The notes: generated by a model from the letters alone, not told the origin. DNA of 32,000 nt from Nonlabens ponticola (GCF_003966335.1 NZ_CP034549.1:2820001-2852000), one strand, 5' to 3'. Positions 824 to 28,921 are shown, counted from the stretch's first letter. Program-made: numbers and translations.

Positions 824-2803
824 TCAATCTGGATTGTCGTGCAAAAAGGAATTATTGTTAGATCGCAACTGGATCTCATTGTTCTCATCAGTATTCAAGG
901 TGGTTCTTGAGATCGAGGTTCCCGATGGATTCTCGTCTAGCTCTACACCATGACGCTGAAATGCAGGCTTGCTTTCAAGCTCTTCTAACCTGTGTGTTGA
1001 TTTAAACTTGAAGTTATAGGCATGCATTTTTCTCTTGCGCTCTTCCGCTCTCAATTTCAACACCTCATTGATAGGCATCTCAGTTGGATCTAATTCTTGA
1101 TCAACAGGTTGAATTGTGGCTGGCGCAGGTGCTTCTGTGACCTTTTTGGTCATGATTTCAACCTCAGCTTGCTCATTTTTTGTTGGCTGTGCTGCGTTCA
1201 AGTTTTCCTCAACTTCCATGTAATCGTCTAGTGAGTACTTGCGTATTCCATCATCGGAAACCTCGGTCACTGGGATCACTTCAACGGCATCATTGACCTC
1301 GATATCCTCTAATTGGTAGGTGATTTTATCTTCTGGTGCATTTGCGTTCTCATCCTCATGCAGCGGCATATCAAAGTCAAAAAGGATTTGTTCCTTTACC
1401 TCAATTTGATCTTCTTCCTGTGGCTGCGTTGCTACTGGTTCTTCTTCTCTTATCGTATAATTGATGGCATCTTGATCCAGCACCTCATCATAAACGACGT
1501 TCAGATTCTTGATAAATTCAGTCGTTGGGATCAATGGATTTTCCATGACTGGTGGCATGATCTCTTCTGGCTCTTCATCGCCTAGCTCGTGCAATATGAT
1601 GACTGGTTCCTCGACCTTTTTTATTGGTTGTGATGGTTGTGGTGTTTCAGCTTTCGCGAAAGCGGAATCATCAACATTATCTTCTTCCTGATCGTCTTGA
1701 TCCATAATCAATTTGCCTGGTTGCACGTTGCCATTACCGTTGTCCAACACCTGTGTGGTGCGCTGCTCTTCTTCCAGCGTGTGGATGATGCGACGCGTCT
1801 CTGTATTTGATATCTCATTTTGCTGTTCTGCATCAAAGCCTGTGGCAATAACAGTCACCGCGATGGCATCACCTAATGATTCTTCCTCGCCTACACCCAT
1901 GATGATGTTTGCGCCGCCGCCGGCCTCGTTCTGGATATGCTCGTTGATCTCACCTATCTCGTCAATTGTGATCTCCTCAGTTCCAGAAACAATGAGTAGC
2001 AACACGTTTTTGGCGCCTGTGATCTTGTTGTCGTTAAGCAATGGGCTGTCCAGCGCCTTGAGAATTCCTTCCTGAGCACGGTTGGATCCAGTTGCCTGGG
2101 CACTACCCATGATGGCAGTTCCCGAATTTGACAATACAGTTTTTGCATCGCGCAAGTCAATATTTTGTGTGTAGTGGTTGGTAATAACCTCGGCAATACC
2201 TCTTGAGGCCGTAGCGAGTACCTCATCAGCCTTAGAAAATCCAGCCTTAAATCCTAGATTACCGTAAACGTCGCGTAGTTTGTTATTATTAATGATGACC
2301 AGCGAGTCCACATTCTTGCGGAATTTCTCAATACCTAATTGCGCCTGCTCGTTTCTCACCTTACCCTCAAACTGGAATGGCGTCGTGACAATACCTACTG
2401 TCAATATCTCCATCTCACGAGCGACCTGAGCAATGACTGGCGCCGCGCCTGTACCGGTACCACCACCCATTCCTGCGGTGATGAAAACCATCTTTGTCCT
2501 GCGATCCAGCATGTTGCGCACGTCCTCAATACTTTCCTGTGCAGCGCGCTCACCAACTTCTGGATTCGCGCCAGCGCCTAGACCTTCTGTCAAGGTGACG
2601 CCTAGTTGTATTTTATTGGGAACTGGGCTGTTCTCGAGTGCCTGTGCATCTGTATTACAAATTACAAAATCCACGCCCTTGATGCCCTGCTGGAACATGT
2701 GTTTGATGGCGTTGCTACCACCACCACCTACTCCAATCACCTTGATCACATTGGACTGGTTTTTAGGTAGATCAAAATCAAAATTGCTGAAATCCTCGCT
2801 CAT
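824..2803 (-). CDS. ftsZ: Cell division protein FtsZ with a long acidic C-terminal linker
   Basis: It has the tubulin signature GGGTGTGAAPVIA, IKVIGVGGGGSNA near the N-terminus, and a core ending in VIATGFD at about aa 324. About 335 further residues follow, ending in SFLHDNPD. It occupies the last position of the dcw cluster. Confidence 0.97.
   Translation of the reverse strand: MSEDFSNFDFDLPKNQSNVIKVIGVGGGGSNAIKHMFQQGIKGVDFVICNTDAQALENSPVPNKIQLGVTLTEGLGAGANPEVGERAAQESIEDVRNMLDRRTKMVFITAGMGGGTGTGAAPVIAQVAREMEILTVGIVTTPFQFEGKVRNEQAQLGIEKFRKNVDSLVIINNNKLRDVYGNLGFKAGFSKADEVLATASRGIAEVITNHYTQNIDLRDAKTVLSNSGTAIMGSAQATGSNRAQEGILKALDSPLLNDNKITGAKNVLLLIVSGTEEITIDEIGEINEHIQNEAGGGANIIMGVGEEESLGDAIAVTVIATGFDAEQQNEISNTETRRIIHTLEEEQRTTQVLDNGNGNVQPGKLIMDQDDQEEDNVDDSAFAKAETPQPSQPIKKVEEPVIILHELGDEEPEEIMPPVMENPLIPTTEFIKNLNVVYDEVLDQDAINYTIREEEPVATQPQEEDQIEVKEQILFDFDMPLHEDENANAPEDKITYQLEDIEVNDAVEVIPVTEVSDDGIRKYSLDDYMEVEENLNAAQPTKNEQAEVEIMTKKVTEAPAPATIQPVDQELDPTEMPINEVLKLRAEERKRKMHAYNFKFKSTHRLEELESKPAFQRHGVELDENPSGTSISRTTLNTDENNEIQLRSNNNSFLHDNPD
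1650..1663. repeat. Iterated palindrome GCTTTCGCGAAAGC, copy 1 (inside the ftsZ linker, encodes AFAKA)
   Basis: An exact 14-mer was read directly from the sequence. FtsZ reads DSAFAKAE here. Confidence 0.99.
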
Positions 2804-2853
2804 AGATTGCTACTTTTACTATTCAATATGTTTATGCGCTTGAGTGGTTTTAC

Positions 2854-4200
2854 CTACTCTGCGTTGTCTAAAAAATCTTTTATTTTTCCTGCCCATCCTT
2901 CTAGAAAACCTTTCTTCTGGCTGGGTTGTGTTACAGATGGCCCGTTTGTTTCTGGCTCTTCTTGCTGCTGCTCTTCTTCCAGATTTACTGACTCTGTTTC
3001 AATTATTTCTTCTTCTTTATTTGCTTGTGCCTGTAGAGAATTTGCTTCAAGTCCCTTAAGAACCAGACCTACTGCCGTTGCGAATAATGGACTGGTACTT
3101 TCTGTATCGCTGTCGCCTGCTAGGTGCTCGTTAGGGTATCCTATACGACTGGGCATACCCGTCACATATTCTGCTAATTGCTTGATGTGTTTTAACTGGC
3201 TGCCACCACCGGTAAGGACCACACCAGCGATAAGTTGCTTCTTAGGCTCCTCATGACCGTAGTTCTTGATCTCCACAAATACGGTCTCCAGAATCTCAAT
3301 CACTCGAGCATGGATAATCTTACTCAAATTCTTGAGTGTGATTTCCTTAGGCTCACGACCACGCAAACCTGGAATGGAAACGATCTCATTTTCTTTATTC
3401 TCACCAGGCCATGCACTACCAAATTTTGTCTTGAGAAGCTCTGCCTGCTTTTCAATAATGCTACAGCCTTCCTTAATGTCTTGTGTGATGATGCCACCAC
3501 CTTGAGGTATCACAGCCGTGTGGCGTATGATTCCATCCTTGAAAATGGCAAGGTCTGTCGTGCCACCACCTATATCGATGAGTGCCACGCCAGCTTCTTT
3601 TTCTTCTTGGCTAAGGACAGCTTCGGCACTTGCAAGTGGCTCCAGCGTTACATCAGTAAGATCTAGACCAGCGCTTTTAACACAACGACCTATGTTCTTG
3701 ATGGATGCAATTTGCCCTACTACCACGTGAAAGTTAGCTTCAAGCCTACCACCGTACATACCAATAGGCTCCTTGATCTCTGATTGACCATCGATCTTAT
3801 ATTCTTGTGGCAAAACGTGAATGATAGCCTCGCCTGGCAACATAACTAGCTTGTAAACCTGCTGGCATAATTTGTCAATATCTTCTTGGGCGATCACCTG
3901 CTCACTATCTGCTCTAGTGACATAATCGCTGTGTTGCAAACTGCGTATATGTTGCCCTGCTATACCTACAGTGACTCGCTCTATCTTCATGCCGCTTACA
4001 GCTTCTGCCTGAGTGACCGCTTGCTGGATGGATGTAATGGTTTGGGTGATATTGTTCACCACGCCGCGGTGAACGCCTTGACTTTTTGATCTTCCTACAC
4101 CTAGGATCTCAAGCTTGCCGTACTCATTTTTGCGACCTATCATAGCAACAATCTTAGTCGTTCCTATGTCCAGTCCTACCGCATATTCCTGTGTATCCAT
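2854..4200 (-). CDS. ftsA: Cell division protein FtsA
   Basis: Actin-like ATPase motifs are present: GLDIGTTKIVAMIG, ALIDIGGGTTDLAIF and VLTGGGSQL. The C-terminus GFLEGWAGKIKDFL is amphipathic. It sits directly upstream of ftsZ. Confidence 0.95.
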   Translation of the reverse strand: MDTQEYAVGLDIGTTKIVAMIGRKNEYGKLEILGVGRSKSQGVHRGVVNNITQTITSIQQAVTQAEAVSGMKIERVTVGIAGQHIRSLQHSDYVTRADSEQVIAQEDIDKLCQQVYKLVMLPGEAIIHVLPQEYKIDGQSEIKEPIGMYGGRLEANFHVVVGQIASIKNIGRCVKSAGLDLTDVTLEPLASAEAVLSQEEKEAGVALIDIGGGTTDLAIFKDGIIRHTAVIPQGGGIITQDIKEGCSIIEKQAELLKTKFGSAWPGENKENEIVSIPGLRGREPKEITLKNLSKIIHARVIEILETVFVEIKNYGHEEPKKQLIAGVVLTGGGSQLKHIKQLAEYVTGMPSRIGYPNEHLAGDSDTESTSPLFATAVGLVLKGLEANSLQAQANKEEEIIETESVNLEEEQQQEEPETNGPSVTQPSQKKGFLEGWAGKIKDFLDNAE

Positions 4201-4207
4201 TTCTATC

Positions 4208-4924
4208 TTACTTTTTTATTACTACTACCTGATTATCAAAACGTAAATCCAACCGCTTCACTTCATCCATAGCTTCATTCTTTTCTAGCTGAGCCATCAT
4301 TGCCTTAAAGTTGTAGAACTTAGTTTGCAAGTCCTCAACATTTCCAAGTGCTATATCAAAATCCAATGCTCTCAAACTACAAATGACATTCTCGCTATTA
4401 CTCATATCGATTTGCGTCACCATGCTTTCCATGTACTCGTCGTTTCTCAAAAAGCTTATCAATTCATAAACCTCATCTTGATCGCTGGAATGATATCCCA
4501 TTACTAACGGCACCCTTGCGGCGTATTCTTGGGACAAAGGCATGATCTTATTTTCTTTATCCAGGTAAAAACTAGAGTCCGCGATGATCCTAGCGACAGG
4601 CACTCGTTGCTCTACAATCACGTGCATCCTACCTTTCAAATCAACCGAAACCTGTGCAGCCCTGATCATTGCGTTATTTTCAAGGCTTAACTCGCTTCTA
4701 TTCAAATCTAATTTTTCTACCGTGAGATTTTGTAAGGTATCCTCACTTTGTATCAACAGTTTATTAACGTTTTCCTGCGATATCAACGGCTCTTTATAAT
4801 CAGTAAATGAGACAGTTACATCTTCTACTTTTTGCGATTCATGACGATGATCTGCAAAGCCGTAAAGTGCTATAATGGCAACTAAAACTAGGCTTAAAAT
4901 AATATGGTTTTCATACTGTTTCAT
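4208..4924 (-). CDS. ftsQ: Cell division protein FtsQ (single N-terminal TM plus POTRA-like region)
   Basis: 238 aa with the N-terminal hydrophobic helix IILSLVLVAIIALYGF. It lies between murC and ftsA and shares a 4-nt overlap with the murC stop. Confidence 0.8.
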   Translation of the reverse strand: MKQYENHIILSLVLVAIIALYGFADHRHESQKVEDVTVSFTDYKEPLISQENVNKLLIQSEDTLQNLTVEKLDLNRSELSLENNAMIRAAQVSVDLKGRMHVIVEQRVPVARIIADSSFYLDKENKIMPLSQEYAARVPLVMGYHSSDQDEVYELISFLRNDEYMESMVTQIDMSNSENVICSLRALDFDIALGNVEDLQTKFYNFKAMMAQLEKNEAMDEVKRLDLRFDNQVVVIKK

Positions 4925-6282
4925 ACGGCTAGTTTTTCTTGAAGTTTTTCTGCCTCGACACCTATATCACCAGCACCTAAAATGAGTACAATGCGATTAT
5001 TCATTTCTTCAATGAATTCTGCAATATCTTCCTTGCCTACTACGGCGCTTACTTGCGGCGGCGCGCCTAATGATCTAATATTCTCGCATAGGGCTTGAGA
5101 ATGTACTCCATCAATAGGCTGCTCGCGCGCAGGGTAGATATCTAGAATGCCAACCTTGTCAAATTGCGCAAGACTTGCGGCAAACTCATCCATAAAATCA
5201 CGCGTGCGTGAGAATAAGTGCGGTTGGAATATTACGGTACACATTTCATCAGGATACATCTCGCTCACCGCTTGATAAACCGCATTTATTTCTTGTGGGT
5301 GATGTGCATAATCGTCAATTACTACACGATCTAGACTGTCAATCTTATAGCTAAAACGGCGTTTGACGCCGGGAAAACTCGCCAACGCTGTTTTCAATAA
5401 TTGTGGCTCGACACCATATTCTATCGCCATAGAAAGCGCTAGTAATGCATTTGATAGATTGTGCTGTCCTGGCAATTTGAGCATAAAATCGGCGTAAGTC
5501 TTACCGTTAGAAATCAGATCAAAATGATAAGCACCGTTGACTATGGTCAAGTTTTCCACATAGGTATCACCACTCGCAATTCCTACCGTTTGGGCGTTGT
5601 CAATATCTAGCGACTCATTGACAAATAGCTTGTTGCGGTCAACGAGATCTGCAAATTCATGGAATGCTTGTTCAAAATCCTCAACAGTTTTATAGATATC
5701 GAGATGGTCTGCATCCATGGATGTAATACCACTTATATCAGGCGATAATTGCAAGAAACTACGATCAAATTCATCTGCCTCAACGACCATGACATCTGTT
5801 CCCGTACTCAAATAATTGGTCTCGTATTCCTCAAGGATACCGCCTAAAAACGCAGTCACTTTTACATCGCTTTTATATAATAGATGCGCAAGAATGGCAC
5901 TTGTGGTAGTCTTTCCGTGAGTTCCAGCCACCGCTAGACAGGTCATGGTTTTTGAAATGGAACCTAGTAATTGTGCACGTTTGTTGATGGGTATTCCGCT
6001 TTCGCGAAAGCGTAACAACTCACCAAAATCCTGAGGCACGGCAGGCGTATAAATCACTTGAGACTTCTCGATATCCTTGAAAGCATCAGGAATTCGCTCG
6101 AAGGCATCATTATAATGAATATCGATACCTTCATCTTCCAGCTTCTTGGTGAGGCTTGTAATCACACGATCATATCCAGCAACGTTCTTGCCCAGTGATT
6201 TGAGGTAGCGTGCGAGGCTGCTCATCCCTATACCGCCTATGCCGATAAAGTAAAAATGGCTTATATCCTTTATATCACGCAT
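4921..6282 (-). CDS. murC: UDP-N-acetylmuramate--L-alanine ligase MurC
   Basis: It has [14 protein letters not shown] and the Mur ligase P-loop [17 protein letters not shown]. Its position in the dcw cluster fits. Confidence 0.95.
5998..6011. repeat. Iterated palindrome GCTTTCGCGAAAGC, copy 2 (inside murC, encodes RFRES)
   Basis: An exact 14-mer, palindromic over 16 bp when the flanking C and G are included. MurC reads LRFRESG here. Confidence 0.99.
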
Positions 6283-7372
6283 CGTGTAGTAATTTTTCCA
6301 TGTGATTTACTATGTCACTGGTAGCATTAGGCAACGCGAGCTTTTTGAAATTATCGCTTAGCCTTTGTTGTAATTTTTTGTCCTCTAGTAATTGATTCCA
6401 GACCATTGTAAAATTCTCGTCCAGATCCTTTTCCTGGATCATGAGTGCTGCGTCGTTGCTTACCACCGCTAGTGCATTTTTTGTTTGGTGATCCTCTGCA
6501 ACGTGCGGTGATGGTATGAATATCACTGGCTTTGCCACCAGAGCCAACTCTGATATAGTTCCAGCACCTGATCTTGAAATGATAACGTTTGCAGCAGCGT
6601 ATGCTAGATCCATGCGGTCGATGAAAGCCATGACTTTTACGTTTTCAGTCTCTGCATCCTTGTATTGATCATAATAAATTTTGCCACATTGCCAGATCAC
6701 CTGAATATCCTTGAACAATTCCAGATTTTTGAAGATGAGTTGGTTGATCCTACGTGAACCTAAGCTGCCACCTAAAACCAATAATGTTTGTTTACCAGAA
6801 TCAAGATTGAAGTGCTCGATCGCTGTCGCTTTATCATGATTCATGCTTACCAGATCCTGTCGTACTGGATTTCCTGTGAGGACGATCTTGTCCTTAGGAA
6901 AAAATCGTTCCAGTCCATCGCTTGCCGTACAGATAACATCTACCTTTTTTCCTAATAATTTATTTGTAATTCCTGGATAGGAATTTTGCTCTTGAATAAG
7001 CGTCTTGATACCCTTGCGATTTGCCATGAACAGCAACGGGCCGCTGGCATAACCGCCAGTACCAATCGCTATGTCTGGCTTAAATTCTTTAATGATCTTA
7101 CCTGCATCTTTGAGACTCTTAATCACCTTGAGTGGAAACATCAAGTTTTTTCTACTGAGACTTCTTTGCAGACCACTGATCCATAAACCTTTTATATCAT
7201 ATCCTGCTGCGGGAACCTTTTGCATTTCCATACGATCATTGGCACCAACGAAAAGTATCTCACAATCGGACCAACGATTGCGGCACTCGTTAGCAATCGA
7301 GATCGCTGGATATATATGACCACCTGTGCCACCACCTGATATGATGATTTTATAAGGCTTCACTGAGTACAT
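6275..7372 (-). CDS. murG: Undecaprenyldiphospho-muramoylpentapeptide beta-N-acetylglucosaminyltransferase MurG
   Basis: The N-terminal motif [18 protein letters not shown] is present, the size is 365 aa, and the dcw position fits. Confidence 0.95.
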
Positions 7373-8549
7373 CTAAAGGGTTCATCTCTTCATCAGGTGT
7401 TTCCTGAGCTTTTATCGCCTGTCGCTTTGCACTTACACTTAATATGATACCTATCGCCATGCAGGTCATCCATATTGAGGTACCACCGCTGCTTATTAAT
7501 GGTAATGTTTGCCCAGTTACAGGAAATAGATTCACGGCTACTGCCATGTTGATCAAGGCCTGCAACACAATCGGGAATCCAACGCCTATTACCAGCAGGG
7601 TTCCAAAAATGGTATCTGATTTATTTGCTATTACCACTACTCTAAACAGTACAAGCAAGTAAACGGCAAGTACCACTAGACCACCGATGATCCCAAATTC
7701 TTCAATAATTATTGCGTAAATAAAATCACTGCTGGACTGCGGTAAAAAATGCTTTTGTTGACTTTTTCCTGGGCCAACACCGGTTACATAACCTGTGGCT
7801 ATGGCAGTTTTTGCTTTTTCAACTTGATAAACAGAATCTGAATCACCGTCACCAGAGAAACTCTCTATACGGCTTACCCAGGTGTCAACGCGATTAGGAA
7901 ACATTCCAGGAAAGGCCTTTGCCATAAGAATGAATAAGGTCAAGGTCAATAATCCTGCACCAACGATTCCCAGTAAGTATTTCCACGGATAACCGCCGAT
8001 GAAGCATAGCAACAAAACCATTGAAAATATGATAGCCGTTGTGGAAAAGTTTGATGGCAAAATAAACATCAATACCGCCGCCACTGGAAGCCATAAGGGA
8101 ACGATGGATTTTTTGAATTCTATGATTTTGTCGCGCATCGCGTTAAGGTAGCGTGCTACCCAAACCATGAGCACCACCGCCGCCAAGGTACTTGTTTGAA
8201 ACCCGATGCCCACAAACGGAATGCGTATCCATCGACTGGCGTTTGCGCCACCCATTTCGGTTCCTTGAAAGGCAGTAACTATAAGTAATACCACCACTAC
8301 AGGTAACATGATAATACTTAATCCCTTGAAGTAATTGTAGGGTATTTTGTGAACCGCATACACGATGCCTATTCCCAAAACTAAGTGCGCAAAATGTTTC
8401 AAAATATACTTGAGCGTGTTGCCTTCACCACCATTCAGATATGCGAGATTGCTGCTCGCACTATACACTGGTAAAAACGAAAATATCGCCAGCATAAGCA
8501 CTAGTGCCCACAAGAATAAATCACCTGATATGTATTCTTTAATCTTCAA
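7350..8549 (-). CDS. ftsW: FtsW/RodA/SpoVE (SEDS) family protein, FtsW by context
   Basis: It is a polytopic membrane protein with SEDS-like motifs ([23 protein letters not shown]). It lies between murD and murG. Confidence 0.9.
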
Positions 8550-19508: not shown

Positions 19509-19513
19509 CGATT

Positions 19514-20302: not shown

Positions 20303-20373
20303 GTTTAACCATAAAGTGCTGTGAAGTACGTATTTACCTACGAATATTAACGGTAAAAAGTGTTTATTGATTC

Positions 20374-20381
20374 TATCTTTG
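20374..20381 (+). promoter_or_regulatory. Putative -7 box TATCTTTG for the response regulator gene
   Basis: It matches TAnnTTTG exactly and ends 10 nt upstream of the ATG at 20392. Confidence 0.45.
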
Positions 20382-20391
20382 TATCAAACAA

Positions 20392-21024
20392 ATGTTCATG
20401 AAAGTTCTTTTGGCAGATCATCATCCTCTATTTAGGCGTGGTATCAAAAGCATGATGAAAAGCAGTAAGAAATTCAACTTTAAAGGTAAGGTTGAAGATG
20501 GACGTTTCTTGATATCTGAAATTCAAAAATTATCTCCAGACATTCTTGTTCTTGAAGTTGATCTACCTAACTCTAATGGAGTAGGCGTTCTAAGAGAATT
20601 GAGAACCGAGTTTCCAGATCTTAAAGTACTAGTAGTAAGCTGTCATCCAGAAGAGATTTATGCTCATTCATCCATAAAAGCTGGAGCTAACGGGTACATT
20701 GCCAAAACAAGATCAGTCAAGGAAGTGAAAAAAGCTTTTGAGACTGTTGCAGCTGGGAAGAAATTTCTATCAGAGAATATTAAAAGAAAAGAAAGCAATA
20801 AAGCCACTAGCGCTGAAGTGCTGAGATTTAAAACACTTTCTACCAGAGAGATTGAGGTCCTTAACCTACTTTCAAGAGGTAAGCGCAATAAAGAGATCGC
20901 TCAATCACTAGCCATCAATGAGAAAACTGTAAGTACTTATAAGACTCGTTTACTCAAAAAGTTGAATGTAGATAACATTGCAGAGCTGATCCACCAGTCT
21001 CGATTGTTGCAAATTACCAACTAG
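20392..21024 (+). CDS. NarL/FixJ (LuxR C-terminal HTH) family response regulator, orphan and apparently atypical
   Basis: It has an N-terminal receiver-like domain and a C-terminal LuxR HTH (LSTREIEVLNLLSRGKRNKEIAQSLAINEKTVSTYKTRLLKKL). There is no histidine kinase in the window. Confidence 0.88.
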   Translation: MFMKVLLADHHPLFRRGIKSMMKSSKKFNFKGKVEDGRFLISEIQKLSPDILVLEVDLPNSNGVGVLRELRTEFPDLKVLVVSCHPEEIYAHSSIKAGANGYIAKTRSVKEVKKAFETVAAGKKFLSENIKRKESNKATSAEVLRFKTLSTREIEVLNLLSRGKRNKEIAQSLAINEKTVSTYKTRLLKKLNVDNIAELIHQSRLLQITN

Positions 21025-22979: not shown

Positions 22980-23058
22980 CTCTTAATTTTTGCTGGTTCA
23001 CCCCAATTTTTATATCAACACAGATAGTTGACGTCCCAAAAAGTAGGATCGTAAAAAT

Positions 23059-23113
23059 AGGGATTATTGATGGTCACGCTTTCGCGAAAGCGTAAAAACC
23101 ATTAACAATCCCT
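23059..23113 (-). terminator. Long imperfect inverted repeat with the iterated palindrome at its apex; probable terminator of the beta-barrel gene
   Basis: Outer arms AGGGATTATTGATGGT (23059-23074) and ACCATTAACAATCCCT (23098-23113) pair over 16 positions, with one G-U wobble and one mismatch when read as minus-strand RNA. The inner part is the 18-bp perfect palindrome ACGCTTTCGCGAAAGCGT. ATTTTTA follows on the minus strand. Confidence 0.5.
23078..23091. repeat. Iterated palindrome GCTTTCGCGAAAGC, copy 6 (intergenic, between the beta-barrel gene and dnaG)
   Basis: An exact 14-mer, palindromic over 18 bp as ACGCTTTCGCGAAAGCGT, nested in a 55-bp inverted repeat. Confidence 0.99.
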
Positions 23114-23133
23114 GCAATAAAAAGGCTGTTGTC

Positions 23134-23907
23134 TTATCTAAATCTAAAGCCGATGCTGGCGTACTGTTGATCTACAGGTGAATCCTTAAAAATACTATTG
23201 AGACCATATTTTGCAAAAATTTGTAATGCGCCGTTACCAACGTAGGCACTAAGACCATAGACAAAATCTTCCATCTCATAATCATTGTAACGTCGCGTGG
23301 TGACGTCGCGCCCTTCATTCTCAAACTTGAGCAATTGGTTTGTCGCGGCATTGATACCTAAGTATCCACCCAATCCTATCGTCCAACTTTCAACATCATC
23401 GTACCTAGTAACACCGTTGTCATAGGTTATTTTATCCTGCTTACCGAATTCAAGATGCACCGGCGCAATGATGGTAAGCTGTTCAAATTTTGATTTATCA
23501 ACGTTGAATCCGACTGGTTGTAATCTAGTAACGTCACCGCTAGTCTCAAACTCTTTATTATCGTTAATGCGCAGCGTTTGCCATTGAAACGACAAACCGT
23601 AATTGAAACGTACGGTGTTTGCCTTGTTTACTTTAGTGCTGAACTCCAATCCAAGCTCCCATATCCCAGAACCCCAAAAGCGGTAGTCCTCGCCAATACC
23701 GTTGTCATCGCCTAATGCTTGATTCCAGCCAACAGCAAAAACACCATTGGTGACCGTTTTTACATCGCGGTCCTCTCGTGAGCTATCAAAAGCGTCTAGA
23801 AAGTCGCTAGGCACTTCTTGAGTGTCCTGATCGTCATCGTTATCATCCTGCGCGTAGGACAGTGTAAATGCAAGTAAGCAAATTGATGAGAGAAAGAATT
23901 TTTTCAT
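23134..23907 (-). CDS. Outer-membrane beta-barrel-like protein (hypothetical), paralogous to the C-terminal half of the upstream gene
   Basis: It has the signal peptide MKKFFLSSICLLAFTLSYAQ, alternating beta-strand-like sequence, and an aromatic-rich C-terminus ASIGFRFR. The start is moved to the ATG at 23907 because the ATG at 23928 lies in the upstream terminator T-tract. Confidence 0.7.
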   Translation of the reverse strand: MKKFFLSSICLLAFTLSYAQDDNDDDQDTQEVPSDFLDAFDSSREDRDVKTVTNGVFAVGWNQALGDDNGIGEDYRFWGSGIWELGLEFSTKVNKANTVRFNYGLSFQWQTLRINDNKEFETSGDVTRLQPVGFNVDKSKFEQLTIIAPVHLEFGKQDKITYDNGVTRYDDVESWTIGLGGYLGINAATNQLLKFENEGRDVTTRRYNDYEMEDFVYGLSAYVGNGALQIFAKYGLNSIFKDSPVDQQYASIGFRFR

Positions 23908-23936
23908 AGGTTTTTGTTTTAATTTCATTAAAGATA

Positions 23937-23969
23937 AAAGAACCCTTGCGATAATTGAAAGGGTTCTTT
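23937..23969 (-). terminator. Rho-independent terminator between the two beta-barrel paralogues
   Basis: An 11-bp perfect stem, AAAGAACCCTT / AAGGGTTCTTT, encloses an 11-nt loop. TATCTTT follows on the minus strand. It lies 35 nt downstream of the stop at 24004. Confidence 0.6.
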
Positions 23970-24003
23970 ACTAGCTAACATGAAAACTTATCTTGGTCTT
24001 ACC

Positions 24004-25155
24004 TTAGTCTGTCTGTAATCTAATACCAAAAGCCACGTACTGCCCATCAACAGATCCGGATTGAAATATGTCATTTAAGCCAAGCCTACCAAATAATGAC
24101 CATGAGTCAAACCCAACATATGCATCAACTCCATAGACCAGTACTTGATTGTCAAATGCATTAATTGTAGTCTGTTTGATATCTGCGCCTGCTAGATCAT
24201 ATTTATACTTAAGTCTGCTACTCAAATTGAAACCAGCATAACCACCTATACCAAATTTGAGCTGATCATAATTGTAATATCTCTCGCGACCATCCTCGTA
24301 GGTTTTTTTATAGCGTGGACCAAATTCCAAGTGCATAGGAAATACGAATTGATCTTGTCTGAACTTCGCTTTATCCGCGTTAAAAGTCAATCGCTCAATC
24401 TGGGTATTATCAGGATCATCAATCGTAAAAGCTCTATTTCCATTAAGCTCAGTTCCTTGTGTTTGGTATTCTACACCGTATCGCCAGCGTATCGTCTGAC
24501 TCTTATTCAATGCAGTGATCCAAGTTATACCTAGGGAAAAGTAGTTGTTGTTTCCATAACTGAAATCGTCAATTCCTAAGTCATTACCATCAATAAAGTT
24601 ATACCCAAAGCCTAAAGACAAGCCAGATGTAGTTTTGATTTGCTTTTTATATTTATTAGTGTTCTTACCTATTTCAAACTCCATTGCCGTGTTGTTCAAT
24701 AGCTTTACGCCATCACTGCCAAGGGAAGCATAATTCAATTCAGTAGATTCAAATTTTAACTTTGCTTCAATAAGCTTATTGTATGCGTCAATTTTATCTG
24801 CATAAGTCTGTGCGGTAAGCTCTTTATCTCTGCTTGCCATCGCGGCTGTGTAAGCATCATTTTGCTCCTGACGCTGATTTATCTTTTCTATTTTCTCGGC
24901 TAATTCAGTGCGCTGATTAGATTCGTAAAGACGTCTATCTTCCTTAAGTTCATCAATGCGTTCCAATCTTTTGGTTTCACTTCTCAAGAAAGCCTTTTCA
25001 GAATTATAATAAAACTTCGAAACTTTTCCATCTACGGTGTCGGTAACCACGTAATATTCACCTTCCTGAACTCCCGTTTTTAAATTCTGCGAACGGCTTA
25101 AAAGGATGCCAGCAAATGATAAAGTTAATGTGATAAGTAATTTTTGATTTTTCAT
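24004..25155 (-). CDS. Hypothetical secreted protein: signal peptide, coiled-coil region, C-terminal beta-barrel-like domain
   Basis: It has the signal peptide MKNQKLLITLTLSFAGILLS and a charged, heptad-like region at about aa 60-150. The C-terminal domain aligns by eye with the 23134-23907 product (FNADKAKFRQDQFVFPMHLEFG vs FNVDKSKFEQLTIIAPVHLEFG, and YVAFGIRL vs YASIGFRF). Confidence 0.7.
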   Translation of the reverse strand: MKNQKLLITLTLSFAGILLSRSQNLKTGVQEGEYYVVTDTVDGKVSKFYYNSEKAFLRSETKRLERIDELKEDRRLYESNQRTELAEKIEKINQRQEQNDAYTAAMASRDKELTAQTYADKIDAYNKLIEAKLKFESTELNYASLGSDGVKLLNNTAMEFEIGKNTNKYKKQIKTTSGLSLGFGYNFIDGNDLGIDDFSYGNNNYFSLGITWITALNKSQTIRWRYGVEYQTQGTELNGNRAFTIDDPDNTQIERLTFNADKAKFRQDQFVFPMHLEFGPRYKKTYEDGRERYYNYDQLKFGIGGYAGFNLSSRLKYKYDLAGADIKQTTINAFDNQVLVYGVDAYVGFDSWSLFGRLGLNDIFQSGSVDGQYVAFGIRLQTD

Positions 25156-25232
25156 GATGCTTGTTTTTTTGATATTGAATTCCTGTCGGCACTAATTAAA
25201 ATGCTGATTATTATTGATTTATGTATTGTGGT

Positions 25233-25991
25233 TTAATTTCTGCTATCGATAAGCGCTACCGCTTCACGTTTCAAAATTTTAAAGCCGTCCTCGACAATAT
25301 TTTGAAGCCTGTCCTGTCGTCTCGCTTCCAGATCCCATTCCGTTTCTCGCAGTAGTTGTTGAGGATTTATTGACGCGTTGGTGATCATGGTTTTCGTTGC
25401 CTTGCTTTGTAAGGCTTGATCTAATAATCTATTAGCTTCGTCCTTTGGTGAGAGTGCAACATCAGCTGCTTTAGAACTAACGATGTCATCTGCGGGTTCA
25501 TCCATTGTGGATGGCTCTTCAATGATGGCAATGGCTTCTATCGGTTCAGATTGCGTAGCAATTGAAGATTTGTATGATTGTGATTTCGATTTGTTTCTTT
25601 CTTTGACAGTGCTTGTGGATCGTTTGGTGTCTTTTTTTATTCGCTTGGGTTCTGCAACAACTATAGCTTCTTGTAGGAACGGCTTTCTTTTACTTGACTT
25701 AACTTCTTCCGCATCTGGTTCAGTTGTTATGACTGATTCGCTACTAACATCATTTTCCAATACAACTGTATTTTCTGGTGACGAGCTCATTTCATTATTT
25801 GAAGTAATCACTGGTACTGCAATCAATCCTAAAATCAATATGGCCGCTATCGCGCCTAGCCAATAAATCACCGGTTTTTCATTGGTGCTTTTCTGTTCTG
25901 CATCTAGCATTCCTGATAATCGATCCCAAGAGTCTGCGCTAGGCTGGATCTCACGGTTATCAAATTTCTTCTTCATATTCTCAAGCTTCAT
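25233..25991 (-). CDS. Putative anti-sigma factor (single-pass membrane protein)
   Basis: It overlaps the 3' end of the ECF sigma gene by 11 nt. It has a short cytoplasmic N-terminus, one TM helix (IYWLGAIAAILILGLIAVPVI) and a low-complexity S/T/E/K-rich extracytoplasmic part. The call rests on context and topology only. Confidence 0.6.
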   Translation of the reverse strand: MKLENMKKKFDNREIQPSADSWDRLSGMLDAEQKSTNEKPVIYWLGAIAAILILGLIAVPVITSNNEMSSSPENTVVLENDVSSESVITTEPDAEEVKSSKRKPFLQEAIVVAEPKRIKKDTKRSTSTVKERNKSKSQSYKSSIATQSEPIEAIAIIEEPSTMDEPADDIVSSKAADVALSPKDEANRLLDQALQSKATKTMITNASINPQQLLRETEWDLEARRQDRLQNIVEDGFKILKREAVALIDSRN

Positions 25992-26544
25992 AATGTTTCT
26001 TCTTTAATAGGGTCAATTGTTCTTGTAACATCAATCGCGCCTTGCGGTATTGACTTTTGCTGGTATTCTCACTTATGGATAGCATGATGGCAATCTCGCG
26101 ATGTTTTAAACCGTCTAGTGCAAACATTACAAAAACACTTTTATAACCATCTGGCAAGGTGTCGATGCATTGCTGGATTTGATCAAGTGGCACATCTTCA
26201 CTATCATCTTCAACCACATCTTCAAACTGATCGTCATCGATCTCACTACTCCATTTATAGGTTTGCTTTTTACGTAGGCAGTTAAGACATTCACGTATCA
26301 TGATGCGTCGCACCCAACCTTCAAAACTTCCTTCGTGGTTAAAAGTATCCAGCTTAGTAAACACCTTTAAAAAACCATTGAGCATGATTTCTTCTGCGCT
26401 CTCTATAGGTGAGATGTATTGGCGGCAAACACTCAGCATTTTACCAGCGTGCTTATCGTATAGTCGACGTTGCGACTTGCGATCACCCTTTGCGGCTCGC
26501 TCGATAAGTTTTTTCTCGTTAGTGTATAGCTGAATCACCTTCAC
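25981..26544 (-). CDS. RNA polymerase ECF-type sigma-70 family factor
   Basis: 187 aa with region 2 (GDRKSQRRLYDKHAGKMLSVCRQYI, FEGWVRRIMIRECLNCLR) and region 4 (DGYKSVFVMFALDGLKHREIAIMLSISENTSKSQYRKARLML). The start is GTG at 26544, with an in-frame TAA two codons upstream. Confidence 0.9.
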   Translation of the reverse strand: MKVIQLYTNEKKLIERAAKGDRKSQRRLYDKHAGKMLSVCRQYISPIESAEEIMLNGFLKVFTKLDTFNHEGSFEGWVRRIMIRECLNCLRKKQTYKWSSEIDDDQFEDVVEDDSEDVPLDQIQQCIDTLPDGYKSVFVMFALDGLKHREIAIMLSISENTSKSQYRKARLMLQEQLTLLKKKHYEA

Positions 26545-26792
26545 AATTTACATGCTTTCTATTTACATAGACACAGGTGCATTTGAAAGGTTGTCTGGTG
26601 AGGTGAAAAAATGATAGTATTCTCTGCTTACTCTTACGTGAGCTCGGTTGTAACGGCTGCGCCGTGGCATTTCCCAAGAGGGAAAAGTTTATTTTTCTAA
26701 TGGAAACTTGGACGTTGAGAGGCGCGGTCCTCAATTTTAAACCTAAACTTGAAAATCCAAGGAAACATGAAACAGACCATCAACTAAAAAGC

Positions 26793-27683
26793 CTACTTGT
26801 TATCACCTTTATAGCCAAAACGCCTTAATTGTTTCTCATCACTACGCCAGTTCTTATTCACTTTTACATACAACTCAAGATGGACTTGCTTGCCGAAGAA
26901 TTTCTCAAGATCCTTCCTTGCCTCAACGCCTACGCGTTTTACCGCTGTCCCTTTATGACCTATAATGATTCCTTTTTGAGTCTCGCGCTCCACCATAATA
27001 ACTGATCGTATGCGGATGATATTCTCGTCCTCAAAAAACTCCTCAGTATCAATTTCTACTGAATACGGAATTTCTTTCTTGTAATGAATCAGGATTTTCT
27101 CGCGTATGCTCTCATTGACAAAAAAGCGTTCTGGCTTGTCAGTAAGAGCATCCTTGGGATAATAAGCCGGAGAAACTGGTAGTAATTCTATAATGCGGTT
27201 AAGCAATTGCGGTACACCAAAGTTTTCAAGTGCACTTATGGCAAAAATCTCAGCATTAGGCAAACGCTCTTTCCAATGGGACAAAGCTTCTGATAATTGG
27301 TTCTCGTCGCCTTTGTCAATTTTGTTGATGAGTACAATAACCGGAACTTCCGCAAAGGTTAATCGCTTTTCAAAGTCTTCATTTTTGAGCTCTTTCTCAC
27401 CTAGCTCTACCATATACAAGATGCAGTCTGCATCTTCAAAAGCATTCTTGACAAAATCCATCATGCTCTCTTGCAGCTTGTAAGCTGGTTTCATAATACC
27501 AGGTGTATCGCTCAATACCATCTGGAAGTCATCACCATTTACAATACCTAGAATCCTATGTCTAGTAGTTTGAGCCTTACTAGTAATGATAGACAAACGC
27601 TCACCTACCAGAGCATTCATGAGCGTGCTCTTACCTACATTAGGGTTTCCTACAATATTTACAAATCCTGCCTTGTGTTCCAT
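26793..27683 (-). CDS. era: GTPase Era
   Basis: It has G1 GNPNVGKSTLMN, G3 DTPG, G4 NKID and a C-terminal KH domain (VERETQKGIIIGHKGTAVKRVG). Confidence 0.95.
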   Translation of the reverse strand: MEHKAGFVNIVGNPNVGKSTLMNALVGERLSIITSKAQTTRHRILGIVNGDDFQMVLSDTPGIMKPAYKLQESMMDFVKNAFEDADCILYMVELGEKELKNEDFEKRLTFAEVPVIVLINKIDKGDENQLSEALSHWKERLPNAEIFAISALENFGVPQLLNRIIELLPVSPAYYPKDALTDKPERFFVNESIREKILIHYKKEIPYSVEIDTEEFFEDENIIRIRSVIMVERETQKGIIIGHKGTAVKRVGVEARKDLEKFFGKQVHLELYVKVNKNWRSDEKQLRRFGYKGDNK

Positions 27684-27778
27684 ACTGTAAAGTTAGTCCA
27701 ATTAAAAATCAATGACGCCAGCGTTATCACCAAGCGGTAAAATATTGTTAAGCGCATAGTATCATGGATTCAAAAAAT

Positions 27779-27786
27779 TATTTTTG
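27779..27786 (+). promoter_or_regulatory. Putative -7 box TATTTTTG for the MscS-family gene
   Basis: It matches TAnnTTTG and ends 6 nt before the first ATG (27793). This implies a leaderless or very short-leader mRNA, or use of the next ATG at 27796. Confidence 0.35.
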
Positions 27787-27792
27787 AAAGAT

Positions 27793-28842
27793 ATGATGTT
27801 GACAATTTTACAATTAGCCCAAGCGGCTCAAGATAAATCCAAAGAAAATTCAGGCGGATCTGGATCAGGCGGTTCAGAGTCTGGTGGTAGTGCAGCCGAT
27901 AAAGCTGCCAATGGTGCCGAGAAAGGTAAAGATGCCGTTGAGCTTATTCTAGGACAGCTAGAATCGTGGTACACCAGTTTTATAGAAAACCTACCCAACC
28001 TTGCCGTAGCGATCGTATTTCTAGTAGTAGCATTTTTTGTTTCTAGATGGGTCAATACAGGTGTTCAAAAATTACTTAACCATCGAGTACCACAAAAAAG
28101 CATCAAGAGAATCGCAGGTAAGTTTGCAGCGGTCATCGTTGTGCTTGCAGGTATTTTTATAGCGTTGAGTGTCATGAACCTAGACGATCTAGTAAGCGGT
28201 ATCATCGCCGGTGCTGGTATATCTGGTCTAGTGGTAGGTCTTGCCTTGCAAGGCACATTATCTAACACCGTTAGTGGTGTAGTGTTATCCTTCCGTAAGC
28301 AAGTGCGCATAGGCGATTGGGTAACCACAAATGGTTATGAAGGCGAGATCGTGGATATAAAATTGAGCACCACCGTAGTAAAAGAGCCTGACAATAATCT
28401 AGTCATCATTCCCAACAAGATGGTATTAGAAAACCCTATGAAGAACGCATCATTGACTGATAAAATGCGTATCATCATTGAGTGCGGTGTTGGTTATGAG
28501 ACAGACTTACAACATGCCAAGGATGTTGCGTGTAAAGCAATAAGCGATGCGTTTGAAGATGTAGAAAAGCCAGAAGATGTAGAGTTTTACTACCGTGAAT
28601 TCGGCGACAGTAGTATCAATTTTATGTTGCGATTTTGGTACAATGCAGAGCGTGGTATCGAACGATTAACATCGACCAGTAAGGCTATCATGGCAATTAA
28701 AAAGGCTTATGATAACGAGGATATTAATATTCCATTCCCAATACGTACGCTGCAATTTGACAACGAGCTCACAATGAACCAACCGTCAAAAAGCAAGAAG
28801 AAAGGAAATGACAAGACCCAATCTTCTGCTGAAGAAGAGTAG
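27793..28842 (+). CDS. Mechanosensitive ion channel (MscS) family protein
   Basis: TM helices are followed by the MscS beta-domain signature (VRIGDWVTTNGYEGEIVDIKLSTTVVKEPDNNLVIIPN). The track ORF begins at a TTG at 27784, and I use the first ATG instead. The N-terminus is Gly/Ser-rich and low in complexity. Confidence 0.88.
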   Translation: MMLTILQLAQAAQDKSKENSGGSGSGGSESGGSAADKAANGAEKGKDAVELILGQLESWYTSFIENLPNLAVAIVFLVVAFFVSRWVNTGVQKLLNHRVPQKSIKRIAGKFAAVIVVLAGIFIALSVMNLDDLVSGIIAGAGISGLVVGLALQGTLSNTVSGVVLSFRKQVRIGDWVTTNGYEGEIVDIKLSTTVVKEPDNNLVIIPNKMVLENPMKNASLTDKMRIIIECGVGYETDLQHAKDVACKAISDAFEDVEKPEDVEFYYREFGDSSINFMLRFWYNAERGIERLTSTSKAIMAIKKAYDNEDINIPFPIRTLQFDNELTMNQPSKSKKKGNDKTQSSAEEE

Positions 28843-28869
28843 CAACTTGTTATAAATTATTTGAGATTA

Positions 28870-28898
28870 AATCCTGCTTGTAATAAGCAGGATTTTTT
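28870..28898 (+). terminator. Rho-independent terminator of the MscS-family gene
   Basis: A 10-bp perfect stem, AATCCTGCTT / AAGCAGGATT, encloses a 5-nt loop and runs into TTTTTT. Confidence 0.85.
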
Positions 28899-28907
28899 GT
28901 GAATTAC

Positions 28908-28921
28908 GCTTTCGCGAAAGC
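28908..28921. repeat. Iterated palindrome GCTTTCGCGAAAGC, copy 7 (intergenic, 10 nt after the MscS terminator)
   Basis: An exact 14-mer with flanks ttac and aaaa. Confidence 0.99.

What the first reader, a model, noticed from the sequence alone, without database searches (positions are those of the whole stretch)
1650..28921. The perfect 14-bp palindrome GCTTTCGCGAAAGC occurs seven times in 32 kb
Exact copies start at 1650, 5998, 9760, 14272, 19420, 23078 and 28908. For one specified 14-mer at roughly 40 percent GC, my rough estimate (0.2^8 x 0.3^6 x 32000) gives about 1e-4 expected copies in this window, so seven identical copies cannot be chance. The flanks diverge almost immediately. There is only a weak preference for T(A/T/C)AC before the core and its mirror GT(A/T/G)A after it. 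The copies are therefore not pieces of a larger duplicated or mobile element. I found no degenerate copies by eye. The core contains TCGCGA (an NruI-type site) and CGCG. The behaviour resembles HIP1 (GCGATCGC) of cyanobacteria, DNA uptake sequences (DUS/USS), or dispersed sites for a dimeric DNA-binding protein such as Noc or SlmA. I do not recall such an element being described for Flavobacteriaceae, but I cannot search the literature from here.
Basis: seen in the sequence. Interest (0 to 1): 0.82.

Follow-up and report, generated by a model that had tools for sequence, protein, structure and literature searches.

The report
Genus-wide evenly spaced 14-bp palindrome
The marine bacterium Nonlabens and its relative Dokdonia carry one exact 14-letter DNA palindrome about every 4,000 bases, unchanged at the same places inside essential genes across species, which points to an undescribed genome-wide DNA signal whose reader is still unknown.

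Summary
GCTTTCGCGAAAGC occurs 7 times in the window, with no copy at 1-3 mismatches and about 7e-5 expected by chance. The window is Nonlabens ponticola: the dcw cell-division cluster plus gldBC, dnaG and neighbours. Five copies lie inside genes (ftsZ, murC, murD, ftsI, gldB), in all three reading frames.

The same 14-mer sits at orthologous positions in five other Nonlabens genomes and in Dokdonia. The flanks there are only 45-69% identical. The peptides it encodes are fixed across the clade: RFRES in MurC, and AFAKA in the GldB signal peptide. A syntenic Winogradskyella locus has none.

Density is 1 per 4.2 kb in 194 kb of Nonlabens DNA, which extrapolates to about 680 copies per genome. Sites are spaced more evenly than random. 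Each carries a symmetric flank signal reaching about 19 bp per side (phased T, few C). Sites also occur in temperate-type phage contigs and in a mobile island, but not in lytic Nonlabens phage P12024S.

It is not a mobile element, a structured RNA, a terminator or an artefact. Its function is unproven. My best guess (about 0.4) is a self-DNA tag read by a symmetric protein during DNA uptake or recombination. The main rival is a chromosome-architecture binding site. I found no description in the literature.

The parts
1650..1663 (.). Motif copy inside ftsZ (824-2803, minus strand), in the variable C-terminal linker. It is read as AFAKA (frame 0).
   Evidence: Orthologous exact copies are in N. 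marinus, N. dokdonensis and N. tegetincola. A Nonlabens MAG has a one-mismatch copy there.
5998..6011 (.). Motif copy inside murC (4921-6282, minus strand). It is read as RFRES (frame 1).
   Evidence: RFRES is present in 80 of the 120 listed MurC homologues, covering nearly all Nonlabens and all Dokdonia-type ones, and is absent in other Flavobacteriaceae. The DNA is 14/14 invariant in 6 genomes, with flanks 69% identical.
9760..9773 (.). Motif copy inside the N-terminal domain of murD (ORF 8550-9968, minus strand). It is read as AFAKA.
   Evidence: It is orthologous in 6 Nonlabens genomes: 14/14 invariant, with flanks 61% identical.
14272..14285 (.). Motif copy inside ftsI/PBP3 (12608-14665, minus strand). 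It is read as (Q)LSRK (frame 2).
   Evidence: It is orthologous in 5 Nonlabens genomes and absent in N. dokdonensis.
19420..19433 (.). Motif copy inside gldB (18492-19469, minus strand). It encodes AFAKA within the lipoprotein signal peptide, which puts a Lys in the hydrophobic core.
   Evidence: AFAKA is present in 48/48 Nonlabens-clade GldB homologues and 0/72 others. Exact DNA copies are in N. marinus and N. ulvanivorans.
23078..23091 (.). Intergenic copy about 100 bp upstream of dnaG (21021-22979, minus strand). It is embedded in a longer inverted repeat (about 23061-23111).
   Evidence: The strand fold is -11 kcal/mol, z = -4.1. Orthologous intergenic copies lie upstream of dnaG in N. marinus (L129:6366) and N. 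ulvanivorans (L130:6274).
28908..28921 (.). Intergenic copy between mscS (27784-28842, +) and ompA (29035-29892, +), just after a terminator-like hairpin.
   Evidence: N. marinus has a copy in the corresponding place, downstream of mscS (L129:48).
1631..28940 (.). The symmetric flank signal that belongs to each copy, reaching about 19 bp on either side of every core. On the 5' side of each strand it reads approximately T-K-N-T-K-N-T-K-R-T-T-H-C, with almost no C. The mirror image lies on the 3' side.
   Evidence: 56 half-sites from chromosomal loci. 48 half-sites from phage contigs. 428 half-sites from metagenomes, including 168 from non-coding sites.

Best explanation
SHOWN: GCTTTCGCGAAAGC, together with about 13-19 bp of phased T/G-rich, C-poor flank on each side, is a DNA-level signal. 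It is kept by selection or biased conversion at roughly 680 places per genome in the Nonlabens-Dokdonia clade. It occurs inside genes in any reading frame and between genes, with neighbouring copies avoiding each other.

INFERRED, fairly safe (about 0.85): it is read as double-stranded DNA by a two-fold symmetric (dimeric or higher) protein with a footprint extending to roughly 40-50 bp.

INFERRED, my committed but uncertain mechanism: the protein uses the site as a tag for the clade's own DNA during DNA exchange. The most likely form is an uptake/recombination signal analogous to the DUS/USS of Neisseriaceae and Pasteurellaceae. A fragment that carries a tag is preferentially taken up or recombined. 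Alleles with an intact tag therefore replace decayed ones (molecular drive). That would keep each copy exact at its ancestral position for very long times. It would also give a second tag close to an existing one no extra advantage, which would produce the even spacing of about 4 kb.
For: DNA-level constraint:
- The 14 bases are invariant at orthologous sites, while the flanks are 45-69% identical.
- The same DNA is used in three reading frames and in intergenic DNA.
- It fixes RFRES in MurC and a Lys-containing AFAKA in the GldB signal peptide throughout the clade only.

Clade specificity: the motif is present in six Nonlabens genomes and in Dokdonia, and absent from syntenic Winogradskyella.

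Genome-wide density: 46 sites in 194 kb, at chromosome positions 0.2-2.3 Mb, and 215 sites in 831 kb of marine metagenome stretches.

USS/DUS-like signatures:
- Over-representation is graded: 1.4e5-fold with 0 mismatches, 125-277-fold with 1, and 3-13-fold with 2. This has the same shape as reported for USS/DUS (PMC1939737).
- Intergenic DNA is enriched about three-fold, yet half of all copies are in genes.
- There is an extended flank consensus.
- Spacing is under-dispersed: 8% of gaps are under 1 kb against 28% expected, with 0 of 5000 simulations as extreme.

Further points: isolated half-sites are not enriched, so the whole palindrome is the unit, which fits a symmetric reader. Natural competence exists in Flavobacteriia, with a preference for own DNA reported in Riemerella columbina (PMC7965970).
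Against: - No known uptake sequence is a palindrome. Known ones are about four times denser, roughly 1 per kb (from memory).
- Competence has not been reported for Nonlabens or Dokdonia (one search found nothing).
- I could not inspect competence genes or any candidate receptor.
- One-mismatch copies are much rarer relative to exact ones (about 1:13 to 1:23) than in Haemophilus (764:1471).
- Positional conservation looks stronger than I recall for USS.
- Copies at host-like density in phage structural modules (3 in 12 kb) and in an integrase-flanked metal-resistance island are explained more naturally by a tag that protects or stabilises resident DNA than by uptake.
- The 3-nt phasing of T in the flanks is not explained by this model.
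Confidence: 0.4

Rival explanations
1. Chromosome-architecture site. A dimeric nucleoid-associated or ParB/Noc/SlmA-like protein binds every copy. It organises the chromosome at regular intervals, for example as loop or domain anchors, membrane tethers or loading sites. Each site is kept by ordinary purifying selection.
For: - The core is a perfect palindrome, with no excess of isolated half-sites.
- The symmetric footprint extends to roughly 40-50 bp.
- Spacing is regular.
- Positional conservation is very high, even where it costs a Lys in a signal peptide.
- Density is similar at several chromosome positions.
Against: - Known systems of this kind have tens of sites, tolerate degenerate sites and are regionally biased (from memory). 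Here there are about 680 exact sites.
- Loss of one site among 680 should be nearly neutral, yet sites are almost never lost.
- A lytic Nonlabens phage replicates without any copy, which is only weak evidence.
- The half-site register does not match parS or the Noc site (my own comparison).
Confidence: 0.28
2. Chi-like self marker. The site, or a protein bound to it, stops or switches a processive helicase-nuclease (AddAB/RecBCD type or a defence translocase). DNA carrying a tag every few kb is then repaired by recombination, and untagged DNA is degraded.
For: - Density of 1 per 4.2 kb resembles E. coli Chi (about 1 per 4.6 kb, from memory).
- The T/G-rich, C-poor sequence lies 5' of the site on each strand. 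That is the strand that would become the 3' tail. E. coli Chi is reported to lie in GT-rich islands (from memory).
- The motif is present in temperate-type phage contigs and in a mobile island.
- It is absent from phage P12024S, which encodes its own ERF recombinase and YqaJ exonuclease. This mirrors the Chi dichotomy of Bobay et al. 2013 (PMC3784561).
Against: - All known Chi sites are 5-8 nt, asymmetric and read as single strands (from memory).
- Here half-sites alone are not enriched and the unit is a 14-bp palindrome with symmetric flanks.
- Even spacing and deep positional conservation are not known features of Chi.
- The phage comparison rests on one lytic phage, which also avoids CGCG for other reasons.
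Confidence: 0.12
3. HIP1-like by-product. The palindrome is generated or maintained by a methyltransferase-linked short-patch repair or another biased repair process, without a reader that uses it.
For: - It is palindromic and hyper-abundant, and occurs both in and between genes, like HIP1.
- Its centre is CGCG/TCGCGA.
- A Nonlabens phage strongly avoids CGCG (9 against 43 expected), so a CGCG-specific restriction-modification system probably exists in some hosts.
Against: - Short-patch repair acts on 4-6 bp contexts. It cannot explain 14 exact bases plus about 19 bp of symmetric flank.
- It cannot explain the mutual avoidance of neighbouring sites.
- CGCG and TCGCGA outside the motif are at about the expected frequency in the host.
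Confidence: 0.07
4. RNA-level or strand-folding element, such as a hairpin, terminator or processing site.
For: The sequence is self-complementary. The copy at 23078 lies in a strong extended hairpin.
Against: - The core hairpin is only about -2.7 kcal/mol. Six of seven sites fold no better than the best 4% of their shuffles, and three of them no better than average.
- On both strands the motif is followed by A-rich rather than U-rich sequence.
- Half the copies lie inside genes in all frames.
- There is no Rfam match.
Confidence: 0.03
5. Chance, assembly artefact, or remnant of a mobile element (MITE/REP).
For: None beyond the repetition itself.
Against: - None of 100 shuffles gave a single copy.
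- The motif is present in many independent assemblies.
- The repeat family does not extend beyond the motif and its weak flanks.
- Copies replace codons without insertions in MurC.
- 54% of copies lie in long ORFs.
Confidence: 0.01

Closest known systems
DNA uptake sequences (USS of Pasteurellaceae, DUS of Neisseriaceae)
   Same: One exact word is over-represented about 1e5-fold in one clade. It occurs in genes in particular frames, and more often between genes. It has an extended flank consensus. Over-representation of mismatched forms is graded (PMC1939737). Orthologous positions are kept.
   Different: This motif is a perfect palindrome with symmetric flanks. It is 14 bp rather than 9-12 bp. 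Density is about 1 per 4.2 kb rather than about 1 per kb. There are far fewer one-mismatch copies. The phylum (Bacteroidota) is different. Neither competence nor uptake bias has been shown.
HIP1 (GCGATCGC) of cyanobacteria
   Same: A highly iterated palindrome found in and between genes and shared by a whole clade, with its function still unsettled.
   Different: HIP1 is 8 bp and several times denser (from memory). Here the unit is 14 bp plus flanks, sites are evenly spaced, and almost no degenerate copies occur.
Chi sites (RecBCD/AddAB)
   Same: Similar density, GT-rich context, exactness, and a contrast between phages that carry the word and a recombinase-encoding phage that lacks it.
   Different: Chi is short, asymmetric and strand-oriented. 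This motif is palindromic, and its half-sites are not enriched.
Palindromic sites of chromosome-organising proteins (parS/ParB, Noc NBS, SlmA SBS, MatP matS)
   Same: A 12-16 bp palindrome suited to a dimer. The Noc site is also a 14-bp palindrome containing TTTC...GAAA (from memory).
   Different: Those systems have about 10-70 sites, often degenerate and confined to or excluded from one chromosome region. Here there are about 680 exact sites at about 4-kb intervals at several chromosome positions. The position of TTTC relative to the dyad differs.
REP/BIME and other MITE-like palindromic repeats
   Same: Hundreds of palindromic copies per genome.
   Different: REPs are intergenic, longer, imperfect and often clustered. 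Here half the copies are inside genes and no larger unit is repeated.

Membership tests
DUS/USS uptake sequences | One exact short word is hugely over-represented throughout the genomes of one clade | tested here: met
   Over-representation is 1.4e5-fold. There are 46 sites in 194 kb of Nonlabens DNA. The word is present in Dokdonia and absent from Winogradskyella.
DUS/USS uptake sequences | Over-representation falls stepwise with the number of mismatches | tested here: met
   1.4-1.7e5-fold with 0 mismatches, 125-277-fold with 1, 3-13-fold with 2, and about 1-2-fold with 3. The pattern is as in PMC1939737 but steeper.
DUS/USS uptake sequences | Competent cells take up DNA carrying the word in preference to DNA without it | not testable with these tools
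   This needs uptake or transformation competition assays.
DUS/USS uptake sequences | The organism is naturally competent and has a surface DNA receptor | not tested
Literature searches found nothing for Nonlabens or Dokdonia. Competence is known only in Riemerella among Flavobacteriia.
DUS/USS uptake sequences | Asymmetric word at about one copy per kb (a property of the two known families) | tested here: not met
   The word is a perfect palindrome at 1 per 4.2 kb.
Chi | A short (5-8 nt) asymmetric word that is active as a single strand, so single oriented copies are enriched | tested here: not met
   The half-sites CGAAAGC and GCGAAAGC outside the palindrome are at or near expectation.
Chi | Strand orientation bias with respect to replication | not testable with these tools
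   A palindrome has no orientation. The origin and terminus are not known here.
Chi | Attenuates RecBCD/AddAB degradation and stimulates recombination | not testable with these tools
   This needs biochemical or genetic assays.
HIP1-type iterated palindromes | A short palindrome that is hyper-abundant in coding and non-coding DNA of a clade | tested here: met
HIP1-type iterated palindromes | Co-occurrence with a methyltransferase that recognises the core | not tested
   No genome-wide gene inventory or methylome was available. There is only indirect evidence: phage P12024S avoids CGCG.
ParB-parS / Noc-NBS / SlmA / MatP sites | A palindromic site fit for a dimer | tested here: met
   The core is a perfect 14-bp palindrome with symmetric flanks.
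ParB-parS / Noc-NBS / SlmA / MatP sites | Tens of sites, confined to or excluded from one chromosome region | tested here: not met
   Density is about 1 per 3-5 kb at positions 0.19, 0.33, 0.83 and 2.27 Mb of 2.8-3.2 Mb chromosomes.
ParB-parS / Noc-NBS / SlmA / MatP sites | A cognate binding protein | not tested
   No candidate could be identified with the loci available.
REP/MITE repeats | Intergenic, imperfect, longer repeat units, spread by a transposase | tested here: not met
   54% of copies lie in long ORFs. No similarity extends beyond the motif and its weak flanks. Codons are replaced rather than inserted in MurC.
Restriction-modification target | The recognition word is avoided in host and phage genomes | tested here: not met
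   The word is enriched 1e5-fold in the host. TCGCGA and CGCG outside it are near expectation in the host.

The most novel reading that the evidence does not exclude
The palindrome and its phased flanks are the docking sites of an unknown symmetric protein. That protein marks resident DNA at intervals of about 4 kb and acts as a checkpoint for a processive DNA enzyme (a nuclease, translocase or loop extruder). This would be a double-strand-read, palindromic functional counterpart of Chi that separates the clade's own DNA, including its tolerated prophages and islands, from foreign DNA. The 3-nt phasing of T on the strand that ends at the site would then be a nucleation track for a RecA- or AAA+-type filament.
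Probability: 0.15. Interest if true: 0.95.

Novelty: new variant of a known kind. Interest (0 to 1): 0.8.

Why it matters
Only a handful of genome-wide signal words are known in bacteria: USS/DUS, Chi, KOPS and HIP1. Each of them revealed a basic DNA transaction. This word is longer, palindromic and evenly spaced. It is conserved strongly enough to dictate amino acids in FtsZ, FtsI, MurC, MurD and GldB across a genus. It occurs in a phylum where no such signal is known.

If it is an uptake signal, it would be the first outside Proteobacteria, and it would imply sequence-selective gene exchange among abundant marine flavobacteria. If it is a chromosome or self-DNA tag, it points to an undescribed system.

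It is also of practical use. It is a taxon marker for Nonlabens and Dokdonia DNA in metagenomes. It may help in assigning phages and islands to these hosts. It may also be a sequence to include, or avoid, in genetic tools for these bacteria.

Tried and rejected
- Planted or artefactual motif: rejected. The window's MurC and GldB are 99-100% identical to the NCBI N. ponticola proteins, and the motif recurs in independent assemblies.
- Larger repeat or MITE: rejected.
- Structured RNA: no Rfam hit, and the folds are weak.
- Codon periodicity as the cause of the phased flank T: rejected, because the pattern persists in non-coding sites and in all three frames.
- Restriction avoidance of sub-words in the host: not seen. 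An apparent TTCGAA deficit disappears under a maximal-order Markov model.
- Similarity to parS or the Noc site: the TTTC block sits one base closer to the dyad, so the register differs (my own comparison).
- A 'dialect' in Winogradskyella: no iterated word was found in 21 kb.
- ERF/YqaJ homologues in the motif-bearing phage contigs: none were found, but coverage was partial.

Searches that yielded little:
- The N. ponticola genome itself could not be fetched, so no whole-genome count or origin/terminus map was possible.
- Full-text searches for the 14-mer, its 8-mer core, and uptake or palindrome terms combined with Flavobacteria, Nonlabens or Dokdonia found nothing relevant.

Full report
OBSERVATION. 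GCTTTCGCGAAAGC occurs exactly seven times, at 1650, 5998, 9760, 14272, 19420, 23078 and 28908. None of 100 dinucleotide-preserving shuffles gave a single copy. Allowing up to three mismatches adds nothing. The successive distances are 4348, 3762, 4512, 5148, 3658 and 5830 bp. They are far more even than for seven random points in 32 kb (CV 0.17; P about 3e-4 for the minimum gap and for the CV).

WHERE IT IS. The MurC and GldB proteins of the window are 100% identical over 100% and 99% of their length to the NCBI proteins of Nonlabens ponticola, on a 2,872,100-bp contig. This also rules out a planted motif.
- Positions 337-16264 on the minus strand carry yqeY and the dcw cluster: ftsZ, ftsA, ftsQ, murC, murG, ftsW, murD, mraY, murE, ftsI, ftsL, rsmH and mraZ.
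- The rest of the window encodes an alpha/beta hydrolase, engB, gldC, gldB, nadE, a LuxR-type response regulator, dnaG, three ORFs without Pfam hits, an ECF sigma factor, era, mscS, ompA, a fasciclin protein and an M16 peptidase (gene order as).
- Five copies lie inside genes, in all three reading frames. ftsZ, murD and gldB read AFAKA, murC reads RFRES, and ftsI reads LSRK. Two copies are intergenic, one upstream of dnaG and one between mscS and ompA.

CONSERVATION.
- In MurC, RFRES is present in 80 of the 120 listed homologues. These include essentially all Nonlabens proteins (59-70% identical to the query) and all Dokdonia-type proteins (about 54%). Other Flavobacteriaceae have variable residues there, such as YFKEK or FFKNN.
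- In GldB, AFAKA lies in the hydrophobic core of the lipoprotein signal peptide. It is present in 48 of 48 Nonlabens-clade homologues and in none of 72 others, although the rest of the signal peptide varies freely.
- At the DNA level the 14-mer is exact at the orthologous ftsI, murD, murC, ftsZ, gldB and dnaG-upstream positions in N. marinus, N. dokdonensis, N. tegetincola, N. ulvanivorans and a Nonlabens MAG. There are only a few losses or single mismatches.
- In ungapped alignments the 14 columns are invariant, while the 90 flanking columns are 45-69% identical.
- Dokdonia has the murC copy, a copy in the mraY-murD spacer, and three two-mismatch copies.
- The syntenic 21 kb of Winogradskyella maritima has no copy and no other iterated word.
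- The constraint therefore acts on the nucleotide sequence. It dates back at least to the common ancestor of Nonlabens and Dokdonia, and it overrides protein preferences.

GENOME-WIDE BEHAVIOUR.
- Loci reached through an unrelated gene (an ABC1 kinase) show 4 and 7 copies per 21 kb. They lie at 2.27 Mb of a 2.85-Mb Nonlabens chromosome and at 0.83 Mb of the 3.23-Mb contig of Nonlabens sp. YIK11.
- Across 194 kb of Nonlabens DNA fetched through proteins there are 46 copies, or 1 per 4.2 kb. This extrapolates to about 680 per genome, which is an inference and not a count.
These hold 215 exact, 17 one-mismatch and 18 two-mismatch copies in 831 kb.
- One stretch tested by homology is 96% identical to an uncultured Nonlabens protein, and another encodes a Nonlabens-type MurC.
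- Over-representation is 1.4-1.7e5-fold for exact copies, 125-277-fold for one mismatch, 3-13-fold for two, and about 1-2-fold for three.
- Conditional on the number of sites per stretch, gaps are under-dispersed. 8% are under 1 kb against 28% expected, and the CV is 0.53 against 0.85, with none of 5000 simulations as extreme. The evenness is statistical and not absolute. Gaps of 0.6-1.5 kb and site-free stretches of more than 10 kb also occur.
- 54% of sites lie in long ORFs, against 84% of random positions, so intergenic DNA is enriched about three-fold. Frame use is 55:27:25.

ANATOMY.
- Each half-site, read 5' to 3' towards the dyad, has C at -1, no G at -2, T at -3 and -4, and T again at -7, -10 and -13 (about 54% against 31% background).
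- Cytosine falls to 4-9% from -19 to -4 (background 19%), and G is raised at -6, -12, -16 and -18.
- The pattern is seen in 56 half-sites from chromosomal loci, in 48 from phage contigs, and in 428 from metagenomes. It persists in the 168 half-sites of non-coding copies and in each reading frame, so it does not come from codon structure.
- The unit therefore extends to roughly 40-50 bp and is two-fold symmetric. The 3-nt phasing is unexplained.
- Isolated half-sites are not enriched beyond decayed copies.
- As a single strand the core folds weakly (about -2.7 kcal/mol). Only the copy at 23078 lies in a strong extended hairpin.
- There is no Rfam match, and no longer repeat contains the motif.

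MOBILE DNA.
- The viral-contig scan gave mostly single chance hits in unrelated phages. It also gave a set of low-GC contigs with 2-3 copies and the proper flanks.
- Two of these were checked and carry portal, protease, major head and HNH genes.
- A metagenome stretch with three copies encodes copper and efflux resistance genes next to a phage-type integrase.
- In contrast, the lytic Nonlabens phage P12024S (35.7 kb) has no copy within two mismatches. It encodes an ERF recombinase and a YqaJ exonuclease. It also avoids CGCG strongly, with 9 found against 43 expected.

INTERPRETATION.
- Shown: this is a clade-specific, DNA-level, selection- or conversion-maintained signal with a large symmetric footprint, at regular intervals throughout the chromosome.
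- Inferred with good confidence: it is read as duplex DNA by a symmetric protein.
- The function is not shown. I favour (0.4) a self-DNA tag used in DNA exchange, working like USS/DUS. Several features resemble those systems (PMC1939737): the size of the over-representation and its graded fall with mismatches, the mixed genic and intergenic distribution, the extended consensus, and the clade specificity.
- A conversion drive acting on each copy separately would explain why single copies among about 680 are almost never lost. It would also explain why a second copy close to an existing one is not maintained. Competence with a preference for own DNA exists in the same class (PMC7965970).
- Against this reading: the palindromic form, the four-fold lower density, the rarity of one-mismatch copies, the lack of any competence data for these genera, and the copies in phage structural genes.
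- The main rival (0.28) is a chromosome-architecture protein site. It fits the symmetry, the spacing and the conservation. It does not fit the numbers and exactness known for parS, Noc, SlmA or MatP sites.
- A Chi-like self marker (0.12) fits the density, the GT-rich 3'-tail polarity and the phage contrast described for Chi by Bobay et al. (PMC3784561). However, known Chi sites are short and asymmetric, and half-sites are not enriched here.
- A HIP1-like repair by-product (0.07), an RNA or hairpin role (0.03), and a mobile element, chance or artefact (0.01) are poorly supported.

NOVELTY. Full-text searches for the 14-mer and its 8-mer core found no description. Neither did searches combining uptake-sequence or palindrome terms with Flavobacteria, Nonlabens, Dokdonia or Bacteroidetes. 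The library does not cover all journals, so this absence is not proof. I rate the finding a new variant of a known kind (genome-wide signal words). There is a real chance (about 0.15) that it belongs to a system with no described counterpart.

LIMITS.
- The N. ponticola genome itself could not be fetched.
- No gene inventory, methylome or origin/terminus map was available.
- Orthologous sites are not independent observations.
- The metagenome sample was ascertained on copies with consensus flanks at -1 and -3.

Noticed in passing
L127 (Nonlabens phage P12024S, JQ823122), whole genome: The phage has 9 CGCG where about 43 are expected, and no TCGCGA. It also encodes its own DNA methyltransferase. 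This suggests a CGCG-specific restriction-modification system in its Nonlabens host. The centre of the 14-mer is CGCG.
   Followed up: partly
window 23061-23111; L129:6350-6395: The copy upstream of dnaG lies in a much longer inverted repeat (-11 kcal/mol, z = -4.1). In N. marinus the orthologous copy is the centre of a 30-bp perfect palindrome, TTGAGTTCGCTTTCGCGAAAGCGAACTCAA. This may be a terminator for the upstream gene or a stronger version of the site.
   Followed up: partly
flanks of all copies (half-site positions -13, -10, -7, -4): T recurs every third base on the strand running into the site, and cytosine is nearly absent. This holds in non-coding copies too. A 3-nt period is what RecA- or AAA+-type filaments impose on single strands. 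No explanation was tested.
   Followed up: partly
L184 (metagenome contig Ga0207897_100003), 518-14424: A copper ATPase, a multicopper oxidase and an RND efflux system sit next to a phage-type integrase. This looks like a mobile metal-resistance island. It carries three motif copies only 0.9 and 2.1 kb apart.
   Followed up: partly
L128 (Dokdonia sp.) 3470, 7683, 16320: Dokdonia has fewer exact copies than Nonlabens. It has three two-mismatch copies that keep the inner TTTCGCG. This suggests weaker maintenance or a shorter core in that genus.
   Followed up: no
window 19420-19433 (gldB signal peptide): The motif forces a lysine into the hydrophobic core of the GldB lipoprotein signal peptide in every Nonlabens homologue. 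This is a visible protein-level cost of the DNA signal.
   Followed up: yes
window 23134-25991 (three ORFs, minus strand) next to the ECF sigma factor at 25981-26544: Three consecutive ORFs of 264, 383 and 252 aa have no Pfam match. They are syntenic downstream of the ECF sigma gene in N. marinus and N. ulvanivorans. They may form an anti-sigma or envelope module.
   Followed up: no
window 8550-9968 (murD ORF): The listed ORF (472 aa, TTG start) overlaps the end of mraY. MurD is 452-453 aa in other Nonlabens, so the true start is probably about 20 codons downstream.
   Followed up: no
window 28869-28897: A terminator-like hairpin followed by a T run (AAATCCTGCTTGTAATAAGCAGGATTTTTT) lies directly before the copy at 28908, downstream of mscS.
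   Followed up: no
Nonlabens loci and metagenome stretches: TCGA-containing words (TCGA, TTCGAA) are 2.5- to 4-fold rarer than base composition predicts. TTCGAA is not depleted once its sub-words are accounted for.
   Followed up: partly
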